Made by a program: the position numbers
Shown here: positions 24,001 through 27,000 of the stretch, in pieces
Position numbering within the stretch: position 1 is the stretch's first letter
Layout: each line of letters starts with the position of its first letter
Source: Escherichia coli
Lineage (GTDB): Bacteria > Pseudomonadota > Gammaproteobacteria > Enterobacterales > Enterobacteriaceae
Length of the DNA: 64,000 nucleotides
Reading direction: 5' to 3' (one strand)
Assembly (NCBI RefSeq): GCF_013315695.1
Contig: NZ_CP054353.1

Positions 24001-27000
24001 TACCGTATGCGTTCCGGCATTAAAAGATGTTCCTACAGACACCGCAGATTCACCGTTGAACGTTCCCGCTCCCGCTGACACCATCATCACGTCACCGGTT
24101 TTCACCTGTGGTTGTGAGGCGATAGCGATGGCAGATGCAGTTCCCGCATTGGCTTCTTTACGATTGTCCTCAACTTCGTTTTTCAGAGAATCGAAATGGT
24201 TATTGAGCGTGTTAATTTGTTGGCTGTTATCTGCGACCCGTTTTTGCGTGTTGGTTAACTGTTGCTGCGTTTGGGTTACGTCTTGTGACAGGCTGTCAAT
24301 TTGTTCATGTGCCTGGACAGACTTCTGCGCCAGACTTTGCATTTGTTTATCGTATTGAGCCCTTTCTTTTTGCTGTTGTGCTGCCACATCGGTTGTCAGT
24401 GCATTCATTTTCTGCCCTTGTTCCGTGGTAGTGCGCTGATTAGCCTCATTTTGAGCCGCCAGCCTGGCATTAATCATCTCCTGATAATGCGCGGTATTTT
24501 GCGTATCTCCAGTCGCGGCGAGCGTTTTTTGTGTGGCTACGATCTGCGCCTGTTGCTCTGTAATTTGCGTTTGCTGGGCATCAGTTACCGCAGACTGTCG
24601 GGCGTTGATCATGCTCTGATAACGGGCGGTTGTCTGTACATCACCTGTAGCGGCAACGGTTTTTTGTCCTGCGTCAGGATCTGTCTGGACAGGGGGAGTC
24701 TGAGTGGTATCAGGTGTTTCAGAAGGGATGTAGTGATGTTCAGTCAAATAGGTATACGCAGCGGGGCTGTTGTCTGTGCGTTCTAAAAAGCGGGTAATCT
24801 TCTGCTCAATCTCCGATTGCGACATGCCGGAGTTAATGGCTGAAAGCTCTGTTGCCGCCGCTTCAATGGTATCACCAGCTAAAACAACAGGGCTGGATAT
24901 TGCTGAAATTATGAGTGCCAGTAAAGCTACGTTTACAGTTTTCATTCATTTTCTCTTGTTCAAAATAAGTCGCATTAATGTTTCTATAAGAAACAAATAA
25001 TATTGTTTTAAGAAATAAACTGCGTTGCAATTTGATCGAAATCTACGCCGCCATTTGTGTGATGTAAAGCGCATTTTTGTCTTGTGTAAGCGTAAACACC
25101 ACCAATAAGAAACAAAAATAGTTTCTTATATAAATAAAAAAGGAAATTATTTCGTGCTCTTTCAATGTAAAAAAGAGTAAAGACTTGTTTTGATAAGCGA
25201 AATAAATTCTGTTTCTGGACTAAACGTGAAGCGGTTCCTGATGTGTGCTAAAATGCGTTTCTTTGATAAATCTCAATTTTTAAGAGGTTTACGCCAGGCA
25301 GGAAATTTAAATGAATGAATTTGAGAAGATTTTTAATGAAATGAATCTGGACCGGGCATTGCTACCGATCCTTTTTCGTTCGAACCGGTCGACAGTGTGG
25401 AAGTATTTAAGCGGCGATAGTACGGCTCCTGCCTCTGCCATGTCGCTGATCATGCTGTTGCAGTTGATCCAGAAACGAAACCCCGATCTGTTAGCCGAAT
25501 GGTTAACGCTTTCTGATTTCACCATTCCGCCAGAAGTTTACCTGGACCAACCTGATTACTGGAAAGGGTGGGTGTATACCCAACACAAGGTCAATAAAAA
25601 CGTCCTGGAATATCTAAAAAAACACTATCCGGATGAAGACCAAAAAAGTATGGGTAAAGGCCGGGAAGAGTAATTTTGCCTCTACTCGGCTATATGCCGG
25701 ATGCGGCGCAAGCGCCTTATCTGGCCTACGATTCGGGCATATTTTGTAGGCATGATAAGACGCGTCAGCGTCGCGTCAGGCGATGACCGCACGGATGATC
25801 AGCGTTATCCCTTCTATCGCAATGACTTCAACATGCGTACCTGCACCGAGATCCTCGCTGGCGCTGACAGGCCATGAACTGTCGCCGACGCGCATATGAC
25901 CGCGCCCGTTGACCAGTGGAGATTCCAGCACAAAACGTCGGCCAATCAGCTGCTGCCCGCGCTGGTTTAAATGACTGTCGCTGTGCTTTTGTTCGCGCAC
26001 CCGCCGCGACAACCATTTCCACCACAGCCAGGCGGCGAGCAGCGTCAGGATGGCAAACATCACCCCTTGCCACTCCCAACCCAGCGGCACCAGCCAGACC
26101 ACCAGGCCGGTAATCACCGCTGCCACGCCGCTCCACAACAAATAACCATTTCCGCCCAGCATCTCGGCTGCCAGCAGCAACCCGCCGAGACTGAGCCAGA
26201 AAATATGTGGATGAACGACCATTAACTCCATCATGGCTGAGTCCGTTTGTTGGCGCTGTCTTTCACCAGCTCGGCAATCCCGGCAATCGACCCCATCAGG
26301 CTGCTGGCCTCTAATGGCATCATCACCACTTTGCTGTTACTGGACGAACCGATCTGCTGTAACGCTTCGGTGTATTTCTGTGCGACGAAGTAGTTCACCG
26401 CCTGAATATCACCGGAGGCGATGGCTTCAGACACCATTTTGGTGGCGCGGGCTTCTGCTTCAGCGGAACGTTCACGCGCTTCGGCCTGTAAGAATGCCGA
26501 CTGACGTTCACCTTCCGCTTTCAGGATTTGCGACTGTTTTTCACCTTCGGCTTTGAGGATTTCCGCCTGACGGATCCCTTCCGCTTCGAGGATGTAAGCG
26601 CGTTTGGTACGTTCCGCTTTCATCTGCGCGTTCATTGAAGAGATAAGCTCTGCCGGTGGGCGCACGTCACGAATTTCAATACGGGTGACTTTAATCCCCC
26701 ACGGGTTAGTGGCTTCATCGACAATACGCAGCAGGCGTGAGTTGATGCTGTCGCGCTGAGAGAGCATTTCGTCAAGTTCCATTGAACCCAACACGGTACG
26801 GATGTTAGTCATGGTCAGGTTGATGATCGCCAGCTCCAGATTGCTGACTTCATAGGCAGCGCGTGGCGCGTCAATCACCTGAATAAAACAGACTGCGTCG
26901 ATGGTAACGTTGGCGTTATCTTTCGAGATAACTTCCTGGGAAGGGATATCGAGCACTTGCTCCATCATATTGATCTTGCGACCAATGCGATCCATAAACG

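What the first reader, a model, noticed from the sequence alone, without database searches (positions are those of the whole stretch)
25311..25673. Unassigned 120-aa ORF divergent from the adhesin module
Seen: a clean ORF with a good ribosome-binding site (AGGAAA then ATG) and no obvious signal peptide. I cannot place it in a known family from sequence alone. Inference: given its position it may be a local regulator or accessory factor.
Basis: inference. Interest (0 to 1): 0.4.

Follow-up and report, generated by a model that had tools for sequence, protein, structure and literature searches.

The report
Small HTH regulator paired with adhesin

Summary
Window 25311-25673(+) is an intact 120-aa gene with an AGGA ribosome-binding site 7 nt before the ATG. 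It is under strong purifying selection and is present in 1404 of 5426 complete E. coli genomes. It is z0640/ECs_0549 of O157:H7 island OI-29, annotated "hypothetical".

The family is tiny: 23 representatives among 1.8 billion proteins. In relatives down to about 32% identity the gene lies divergent, across roughly 230-410 bp (about 365 bp in most), from a YadA-anchor adhesin. The adhesin is usually followed by a lipoprotein and, in most cassettes, a small membrane protein. This arrangement occurs at seven or more different chromosomal sites.

The shared intergenic region keeps two promoters and four positionally conserved GTTTC-N5-GAAAC-type sites (hexamer seen 6 times, 0.3 expected). Distant relatives carry different repeated palindromes.

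Best reading: a dedicated, probably autoregulating, local regulator, not yet tested by experiment. The published "GmrA transcription factor" of this island is the adhesin gene.

The parts
25311..25673 (+). z0640/ECs_0549 homologue. A 120-aa cytoplasmic protein with an N-terminal XRE-type HTH (helices 3-11, 15-22, 26-34 [recognition helix], 41-56, 58-70) and a family-specific helical C-terminal extension (about residues 71-115).
   Evidence: identity; fold; weak HTH profile matches; purifying selection.
24946..25310 (.). 365-bp AT-rich (31% GC) shared intergenic control region between the adhesin gene and the HTH gene.
   Evidence: Its length (359-375 bp) and its blocks are conserved across genera.
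25246..25254 (+). Putative extended -10 promoter element TGcTAAAAT of the HTH gene. The -35 is poor. The inferred transcription start is near 25261, giving a leader of about 50 nt.
   Evidence: Read from the sequence. GTGnTAAAAT is invariant in 6 of 6 divergent loci, and TAAAAT is also kept in L013 and L025. The assignment is an inference and has not been mapped.
25040..25068 (-). Putative sigma-70 promoter of the adhesin operon: -35 TTTACA, 17-nt spacer, -10 TAGATT. The inferred start is near 25033, giving a leader of about 88 nt.
   Evidence: Promoter scan. It lies in the most conserved block of the cross-genus alignment, and every locus keeps TTTAC(A/T)-17-TAnnTT.
24980..24994 (.). O1: perfect palindrome GTTTCTATAAGAAAC, 35-49 nt upstream of the adhesin start codon and inside the inferred leader.
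   Evidence: A GTTTC site at this position occurs in all 7 close loci. The half-sites are invariant while flanks vary among four Escherichia. Every perfect match in 28 fetched loci lies in these intergenic regions.
25108..25126 (.). O2: inverted pair AGAAAC-N7-GTTTCT upstream of the adhesin -35 (about -75 to -93).
   Evidence: Half-sites are invariant with three different spacer sequences in Escherichia.
25211..25225 (.). O3: GTTTCTGGACTAAAC, one mismatch from the palindrome.
   Evidence: Kept in E. coli, Pseudocitrobacter and Symbiopectobacterium.
25257..25271 (.). O4: GTTTCTTTGATAAAT, starting 3 nt after the HTH gene's -10 and overlapping its inferred transcription start. It is the candidate autoregulatory site.
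   Evidence: A GTTTCT directly after TAAAAT is present in all 7 close loci and in L025.
23929..24945 (-). [not shown]
   Evidence: The paper's primers map exactly. Catalogue entry.
23585..23875 (-). 5' part of the cassette lipoprotein gene (z0638/ECs_0546 homologue, 140 aa when intact, LAGC lipobox), cut by IS1.
22818..23584 (+). IS1 insertion (insA/insB) inside the lipoprotein gene. It is not part of the ancestral cassette.
   Evidence: the collinear blocks overlap by about 10 bp, which marks the target duplication.
22676..22817 (-). 3' part of the interrupted lipoprotein gene.
22476..22679 (-). 67-aa single-pass membrane protein, the last gene of the cassette.
   Evidence: Homologues occur in Pseudocitrobacter, L011 and Kosakonia.

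Best explanation
The ORF encodes a small cytoplasmic transcription factor of the XRE/Cro-C1 helix-turn-helix superfamily. It belongs to a previously unclassified, narrowly distributed family of Enterobacterales.

Together with the divergently transcribed operon (short YadA-type trimeric adhesin, about 140-aa lipoprotein, about 67-aa membrane protein) it forms a self-contained cassette that moves horizontally.

Proposed mechanism (inferred). The protein binds as a dimer to 15-bp GTTTC-N5-GAAAC-type operators spread over the 365-bp shared control region.
- O4 overlaps its own transcription start, which would give autoregulation, most simply autorepression.
- O1 lies in the adhesin leader.
- O2 and O3 lie upstream of the adhesin promoter.
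Occupancy of these sites would set adhesin-operon expression.

What is shown by computation: the gene is real and constrained, it has the HTH fold, the synteny holds, the promoters are conserved, and the motif is enriched and kept in position.

What is inferred: that this protein is what binds the motif, the dimeric mode of binding, and the sign of regulation. I lean towards a repressor or modulator rather than an obligate activator. The reasons are that deletion of z0640 did not copy the phenotype of the adhesin deletion, and that the adhesin gene with its intergenic region complemented a whole-island deletion that lacks z0640.
For: Fold:
- The AF2 model has pLDDT 92.5 and pTM 0.81.
- Individual family members hit Pfam MqsA_antitoxin (3e-5), Xre-like-HTH (7e-5), HTH_3 (3.8e-4) and HTH_26 (4.5e-4).
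- hhalign aligns the whole MqsA HTH, 58 columns, at E=1.3e-3.
- R26 at the start of the recognition helix is one of only three family-wide invariant residues.

Synteny:
- A divergent YadA_anchor gene lies about 230-410 bp away in Escherichia, Pseudocitrobacter, Kosakonia, Leclercia-like, L011, L012, L013/14 and L025, at different chromosomal sites.
- A truncated adhesin remains in the symbiont Symbiopectobacterium.
- In E. coli, 1404 genomes carry the ORF and 1414 carry the adhesin plus intergenic region.

Control region:
- An unbiased hexamer count puts AGAAAC/GTTTCT first, 31 observed against 1.9 expected.
- The window has 6 copies against a simulated mean of 0.31, reached in 0 of 20000 simulations.
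- 6 of the 26 copies in the whole 64-kb window lie in these 365 bp.
- A position matrix of 48 sites shows a GTTTCT-N4-(G/T)AAA palindrome.
- All 6 perfect palindromes in 28 loci lie in these intergenic regions.
- Half-sites stay invariant while spacers and flanks vary among Escherichia.

Co-variation:
- Relatives with another recognition helix lack the motif and carry other repeated palindromes. L023 has AGCTAnTAGCT twice, only in its intergenic region, with 0 expected. L013 has AGAACATTTAATGTTCT.

Expression:
- z0638, the adhesin gene and z0640 are co-expressed in DMEM and co-silenced on HeLa contact.

Precedent:
- An XRE HTH protein (Trp1) controls the trimeric adhesin gene badA in Bartonella.
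Against: - There is no experimental DNA-binding or expression data for this protein.
- The E. coli sequence itself does not reach significance against any HTH profile (E=0.12).
- The protein is mildly acidic (pI 5.7; HTH domain pI 6.1), which is not typical of a strong DNA binder.
- The operator-like sites have mixed geometry (N5 head-to-head, N7 tail-to-tail and single half-sites), so a simple dimer-operator model may be too neat.
- The motif could belong to a conserved host factor. GAAACA-type half-sites recall OmpR boxes (from memory, not tested).
- Deletion of z0640 gave no change in motility, fliC or motA. If the published adhesin-motility link is real, that argues against a strong effect on adhesin level under laboratory conditions.
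- Three relatives are not next to an adhesin: L023/24 (lipoprotein only), L027 and the phage-like L021/22.
Confidence: 0.6

Rival explanations
1. It is an HTH transcription factor, but its main targets lie elsewhere in the genome. It would be a trans-acting regulator carried by the adhesin cassette that coordinates other surface or motility genes, in the manner of adhesin-locus-encoded regulators such as MrpJ or PapX. The intergenic motif would then belong to a host factor.
For: The HTH fold. The island as a whole affects motility and fliA in O157:H7. Regulators encoded in adhesin loci that act on flhDC are known. Bartonella Trp1 acts in trans on badA.
Against: Deletion of z0640 had no effect on motility, fliC or motA, and a z0640 plasmid did not complement the island deletion. 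The motif clusters specifically in the cassette's own control region, moves with the cassette between chromosomal sites, and changes when the recognition helix changes.
Confidence: 0.15
2. It has an HTH fold but does not bind DNA. It would work through protein contacts, for example as a cytoplasmic accessory or chaperone for the adhesin precursor, or as an anti-regulator, using the family-specific C-terminal extension.
For: A near-neutral to acidic pI. A C-terminal extension of about 50 aa with conserved aromatic residues (W64, Y77, P73, G86) that matches nothing outside the family. Strict co-inheritance with secretion-related genes.
Against: The most conserved residues sit in the HTH, namely R26-S27-T28 at the start of the recognition helix. 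Divergent transcription with a long, conserved, motif-rich control region is the classic layout of a local DNA-binding regulator. Trimeric autotransporters are not known to need cytoplasmic chaperones (general knowledge).
Confidence: 0.1
3. It is an orphan type II antitoxin-like or phage/mobile-element HTH (MqsA-, HigA- or Aca-like) left next to the adhesin by chance, with no functional link to it.
For: The best sequence and structure matches are antitoxin and Aca HTH domains. The most distant relatives sit in phage-like contexts. The Kosakonia locus lies beside an Xre-RES toxin-antitoxin pair.
Against: No toxin or anti-CRISPR partner is adjacent in any locus. There are no PADLOC or significant PHROG hits and no significant viral structural neighbours. 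The pairing with the adhesin or lipoprotein operon recurs at seven or more independent insertion sites, which chance does not explain. The Xre-RES pair in Kosakonia is complete without it.
Confidence: 0.05

Closest known systems
XRE/Cro-C1 family small regulators that bind repeated palindromes in their own control region (restriction-modification controller C-proteins such as C.AhdI and C.EcoT38IS; anti-CRISPR-associated Aca1/Aca2)
   Different: No sequence-level membership for the E. coli protein. The partner genes are an adhesin cassette, not restriction-modification or anti-CRISPR genes. The C-terminal extension has no structural match outside its own family. Binding has not been shown.
MqsA / HigA / Xre-like antitoxin HTH domains (Pfam PF15731, PF20432)
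   Same: These are the nearest sequence profiles, and the match covers the whole HTH including the G-x-P-A/S...LL...P-E-L-F pattern. These proteins also autoregulate through palindromes.
   Different: There is no adjacent toxin, no MqsA zinc-ribbon N-domain and no ParS/MbcA C-domain. The context is an adhesin operon.
Bartonella henselae Trp1-9, XRE-type HTH proteins that control the trimeric autotransporter gene badA (PMC5387305)
   Same: A small XRE-type HTH protein linked to expression of a trimeric autotransporter adhesin.
   Different: The Trp genes sit downstream of Brt RNAs, away from badA, and are specific to one genus. Here the gene is physically paired with the adhesin and no RNA partner was found (Rfam). 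The sequences were not compared.
Regulators encoded in adhesin loci, such as MrpJ (Proteus mrp operon) and PapX (E. coli pap)
   Same: A small DNA-binding protein carried with an adhesin gene cluster.
   Different: Those are the last genes of fimbrial operons and repress flhDC. Here the gene is divergent from an autotransporter, and deleting it leaves motility unchanged. Fold relatedness was not tested.

Membership tests
XRE / Cro-C1 helix-turn-helix superfamily | Compact five-helix bundle in which helices 2-3 form the HTH | tested here: met
   [not shown]
XRE / Cro-C1 helix-turn-helix superfamily | Significant match to a Pfam or NCBIfam HTH_XRE-type profile | tested here: inconclusive
   The E. 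coli protein gives only MqsA_antitoxin at E=0.12 and no NCBIfam hit. One or two of 22 family members reach E of 3e-5 to 4.5e-4 for MqsA, Xre-like-HTH, HTH_3 and HTH_26. hhalign against MqsA gives E=1.3e-3 with probability 18%.
XRE / Cro-C1 helix-turn-helix superfamily | Sequence-specific binding to (usually palindromic) operator DNA | not testable with these tools
   Support is indirect only: enriched, positionally conserved GTTTC-N5-GAAAC sites, and different palindromes in distant relatives.
Type II antitoxins with an XRE HTH (MqsA, HigA, Xre-RES/ParS) | Cognate toxin gene adjacent, in the same operon | tested here: not met
   The neighbours are the adhesin (divergent) and ybbJ, or other housekeeping genes in other hosts. 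No small toxin-like ORF is present. PADLOC gives nothing.
Type II antitoxins with an XRE HTH (MqsA, HigA, Xre-RES/ParS) | Toxin-binding domain (MqsA zinc-binding N-domain, or Xre_MbcA_ParS_C) | tested here: not met
   The protein has no cysteines and no N-domain, since the HTH starts at residue 3. There is no PF09722 match.
Anti-CRISPR-associated (Aca) regulators | Encoded next to an anti-CRISPR gene in a phage or mobile element | tested here: not met
   [not shown]
Restriction-modification controller (C) proteins | Located with restriction-modification genes and bind C-boxes in their own promoter | tested here: not met
   [not shown]
Trimeric autotransporter adhesin (the neighbouring gene, published as transcription factor GmrA) | Sec signal peptide, coiled-coil stalk and C-terminal YadA-like beta-barrel anchor | tested here: met
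   Pfam YadA_anchor E=2.6e-11 over the full 60-position model at residues 278-337. Signal sequence MKTVNVALLALIISAISSPVVLA|GD read. RefSeq names it 'YadA family autotransporter adhesin'. The only 'DNA-binding' label is a sub-threshold coiled-coil hit, TMF_DNA_bd at E=0.065.

The most novel reading that the evidence does not exclude
Probability: 0.4. Interest if true: 0.6.

Novelty: new variant of a known kind. Interest (0 to 1): 0.5.

Why it matters
Short Saa-like trimeric adhesins occur in about a quarter of E. coli genomes, including O157:H7, neonatal-meningitis, uropathogenic, avian and enteroaggregative lineages. How they are switched on is unknown. Identifying the adjacent gene as an HTH protein with candidate operators gives a directly testable regulatory model.

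It also flags a probable mis-assignment in the literature. The OI-29 "transcriptional activator GmrA", now repeated in several reviews, has every hallmark of an outer-membrane autotransporter. The island's only HTH-fold protein was set aside as having no phenotype.

Finally, the family has no Pfam, NCBIfam or PHROG model, so it currently stays "hypothetical" in thousands of genomes.

Tried and rejected
- Direct sequence searches of the single protein gave nothing usable. NCBIfam: none. Pfam: E=0.12. PHROGs: two E>0.02 hits to families of unknown function. PADLOC: none. PDB phmmer: only chance hits such as Esa1 and cyclin E. The profile search against PDB put an Xre/ParS HTH first at E=0.74, followed by Nup85 noise.

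- The first AlphaFold run, with 14 close sequences, gave pLDDT 57 and was discarded. Adding distant relatives from the 1.84-billion-protein HMM search fixed this.

With the close alignment it returned only 4 loci among 100,044 species genomes. Co-occurrence was therefore assessed through exact-protein look-ups instead.

- A 2772-aa repeat protein (P0073) matched the C-terminal half of the profile seven times. I judged this compositional and did not use it.

- The hypothesis that the ORF is a toxin-antitoxin or phage remnant was rejected on context (see rivals).

- The 'essential activator of the adhesin' version of the model was down-weighted because deletion of z0640 does not phenocopy the adhesin deletion, and because the adhesin gene plus intergenic region complements a whole-island deletion.

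- Rfam found no RNA family in the control region, only sub-threshold REP-derived naRNA4 hits downstream.

- The lipoprotein partner matched no Pfam, NCBIfam or PDB entry.

Full report
**1. What is there**

The window is E. coli chromosome. The region is 100% identical to several complete genomes. The finding lies in a small island between cueR (22065-22472) and ybbJ (25776-26234, minus strand).

In an uninterrupted reference (L001) the island holds four genes:
- a 67-aa hypothetical protein;
- a 140-aa hypothetical lipoprotein;
- a 338-aa "YadA family autotransporter adhesin";
- divergently, a 120-aa "hypothetical protein", WP_001001644.1.

The last is the ORF of the finding, 25311-25673(+). 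AGGAAA lies at 25300-25305 before the ATG, and in-frame stops lie upstream. In this window an IS1 (about 22818-23584) has split the lipoprotein gene.

The ORF is a real gene:
- Against E. whittamii its first 86 codons show 26% synonymous differences and no non-synonymous ones. Against other genera dN/dS is about 0.05.
- The full ORF region is present in 1404 of 5426 complete E. coli genomes, and the adhesin plus intergenic region in 1414.

**2. Identity in the literature**

In O157:H7 Sakai the adhesin is ECs_0548 and the ORF is ECs_0549. The island is O-island 29 of EDL933, which holds z0638, z0639 and z0640.

Yang et al. 2018 (PMC5826968) named z0639 "GmrA". They describe it as a transcriptional activator that binds the fliA promoter, and they reported that deleting z0638 or z0640 does not change motility, fliC or motA.

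Mapping their primers onto the window is unambiguous:
- The gmrA cloning primers match the first and last codons of the 338-aa adhesin gene (24922-24945 and 23928-23947, 0 mismatches).
- The z0640 primers fall in and just upstream of the ORF (25274-25310, 25356-25377, 25635-25660).

So the ORF is z0640, and "GmrA" is the protein with a signal peptide and a full-length Pfam YadA_anchor domain (E=2.6e-11). An earlier catalogue lists ECs0548 as "Saa-like protein". The only "DNA-binding" label I could recover for that protein is a sub-threshold coiled-coil match, TMF_DNA_bd at E=0.065. Whether this is the domain the authors' CDD search reported is my guess.

Their Table S3 shows that z0640 is transcribed (RPKM 43.5 in DMEM). 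It is shut off together with the adhesin and lipoprotein genes after attachment to HeLa cells.

**3. What the protein is**

Single-sequence searches fail.

The family is very small:
- 21 clusters at 90% identity among 5.8 billion proteins.
- 23 representatives among 1.84 billion with a profile search.
- Every member with a named source is from Enterobacterales: Escherichia, Pseudocitrobacter, Kosakonia, Kluyvera, Leclercia, Citrobacter, Symbiopectobacterium, Cronobacter, Hafnia, Pectobacterium and Ewingella.

Individual family members reach Pfam MqsA_antitoxin, Xre-like-HTH, HTH_3 and HTH_26 at E of 3e-5 to 4.5e-4. hhalign aligns the entire MqsA HTH.

Only family members match over the full length. 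The last roughly 50 residues are therefore a family-specific extension. It contains the conserved W64, P73, Y77 and G86.

R26, at the start of the predicted recognition helix, is one of three residues invariant across the whole family.

**4.

Wherever a relative with about 32% identity or more could be placed on a long contig, it lies divergent from a YadA_anchor gene, with two exceptions described below. The gap is about 230-410 bp, and 359-375 bp in the closer loci. The insertion sites differ:

| Host or locus | Chromosomal site |
|---|---|
| Escherichia | cueR / ybbJ |
| Pseudocitrobacter | qmcA / fetA |
| Kosakonia | a chemoreceptor gene / Xre-RES pair |
| Leclercia-like | flavin reductase / EF-G-like gene |
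| L011 | beside a recombinase, with two tandem adhesins |
| L012-L014 | ribE-mdtK / sugar transporter |
| L025 | next to a sucrose operon |

In the symbiont Symbiopectobacterium the adhesin is truncated.

Adhesin length ranges from 338 to 624 aa. Its passenger domain is only 35-49% identical between Escherichia species, while the HTH protein is 98-99% identical.

The lipoprotein follows the adhesin in most cassettes (it is absent in Kosakonia and L025), and the small membrane protein in several.

The exceptions:
- L023/24 keeps the HTH gene opposite the lipoprotein with no adhesin.
- L027 has no adhesin.
- The most distant branch, P0084, sits in a phage-like context.

**5. The control region**

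A cross-genus alignment of the intergenic region shows two conserved promoter-like blocks:
- For the adhesin, TTTACA-17-TAGATT on the minus strand (25068-25040). This was also found by the promoter scan.
- For the ORF, an extended -10, TGcTAAAAT (25246-25254).

An unbiased hexamer count over eight intergenic regions puts AGAAAC/GTTTCT first both by count and by enrichment, 31 observed against 1.9 expected. The window has six copies against a simulated mean of 0.31, reached in 0 of 20000 first-order Markov simulations. That is 6 of the 26 copies in all 64 kb.

Aligning 48 sites reveals the palindrome GTTTCT-N4-(G/T)AAA(C).

| Site | Window position | Location |
|---|---|---|
| O1 | 24980-24994 (perfect) | adhesin leader |
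| O2 | 25108-25126 (inverted pair) | upstream of the adhesin -35 |
| O3 | 25211-25225 | between the promoters |
| O4 | 25257-25271 | begins 3 nt after the ORF's -10 |

Further support for these sites:
- Sites at the O1 and O4 positions occur in every close locus, and O4 also in L025.
- Among four Escherichia the half-sites are invariant while spacers and flanks change.
- All six perfect GTTTC-N5-GAAAC matches in the 28 fetched loci lie in these intergenic regions.
- Relatives with a different recognition helix lack the motif and carry other repeated palindromes. L023 has AGCTAnTAGCT twice, only in its intergenic region, with zero expected. L013 has AGAACATTTAATGTTCT.

This co-variation is what a cognate regulator-operator pair predicts. 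The number of independent lineages is small, however, and the hosts also differ.

**6. Mechanism and its limits**

The best-supported reading is a dedicated local XRE-type regulator that binds these operators. It would regulate itself at O4 and modulate the adhesin operon.

On the sign of regulation, two published observations argue against an obligate activator, provided motility reports adhesin function:
- Deletion of z0640 did not copy the adhesin deletion.
- A plasmid carrying the adhesin gene with the intergenic region up to 25264, but without z0640, complemented the whole-island deletion.

Points against the model as a whole:
- There are no binding data.
- The E. coli sequence is below profile thresholds.
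- The pI is mildly acidic.
- The site geometry is heterogeneous.
- A host factor might own the motif.

**7. Comparison with known systems and novelty**

It works like small XRE autoregulators (C-proteins, Aca proteins, antitoxin HTH domains) but fails their defining context features: there is no toxin, no anti-CRISPR gene and no restriction-modification genes.

The nearest biological precedent is Bartonella Trp1, an XRE protein controlling the trimeric adhesin gene badA. That system is unlinked to the adhesin gene and is associated with regulatory RNAs.

I therefore class the ORF as a new variant of a known kind: an unclassified XRE sub-family with its own C-terminal extension, dedicated to a mobile adhesin cassette.

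The added interest is the conflict with the published assignment of the island's transcription-factor role to the adhesin.

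Noticed in passing
[not shown]
   Followed up: partly
window 22818-23584: An IS1 copy (insA/insB) is inserted in the cassette lipoprotein gene (z0638/ECs_0546 homologue), splitting it into 22676-22817 and 23585-23875. 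Reference genomes have it intact.
   Followed up: yes
window 22676-22817 + 23585-23875 (-); L001 6354-6776: The lipoprotein of about 140 aa (LAGC lipobox, two conserved Cys, conserved C-terminal GKxAL...QFxGYLK) follows the adhesin in most cassettes (not Kosakonia or L025). In L023/L024 it sits directly opposite the HTH gene with no adhesin. It has no Pfam, NCBIfam or PDB match. It could be an adhesin assembly factor in the manner of SadB (from memory, untested).
   Followed up: partly
window 22476-22679 (-): A 67-aa ORF with one hydrophobic helix overlaps the end of the lipoprotein gene. It is conserved in Escherichia, Pseudocitrobacter, L011 and, shortened, in Kosakonia. It is unannotated in Sakai.
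   Followed up: partly
window 25680-25815: REP/BIME-type repeats lie between the ORF and ybbJ (sub-threshold Rfam naRNA4 hits). They explain why the 801-bp query hit 17792 places in 5424 genomes.
   Followed up: partly
L015 and L018 versus window 23929-25150: The adhesin passenger and the adhesin-proximal half of the intergenic region are highly divergent between Escherichia lineages (35-49% protein identity at the N-terminus). The HTH gene and its proximal half are nearly invariant. This suggests recombination or diversifying selection on the adhesin with a break-point inside the control region.
   Followed up: partly
proteins P0016, P0018 (E. coli variants of the ORF): Some E. coli carry a frameshift after about residue 76 that replaces the C-terminal extension (one cluster has 14 member sequences). 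These are natural truncation variants of the regulator.
   Followed up: no
protein P0073 (2772 aa, metagenomic): A giant repeat protein matched profile positions 56-105 seven times (E=7e-12 overall). It is probably a compositional or repeat artefact rather than homology to the C-terminal extension.
   Followed up: no
window 19400-22068 and L001 1-5746: Upstream of cueR lies a giant BapA/SiiE-like adhesin gene (siiEA) with its type I secretion genes. The ABC transporter gene is annotated as frameshifted in the reference genome. This chromosomal corner therefore stacks two unrelated adhesin systems around cueR.
   Followed up: no
L011 1842-5641: One relative's cassette carries two tandem YadA-anchor adhesin genes plus a weak ParE-like ORF, next to a serine recombinase. 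This hints at how the cassette moves.
   Followed up: no
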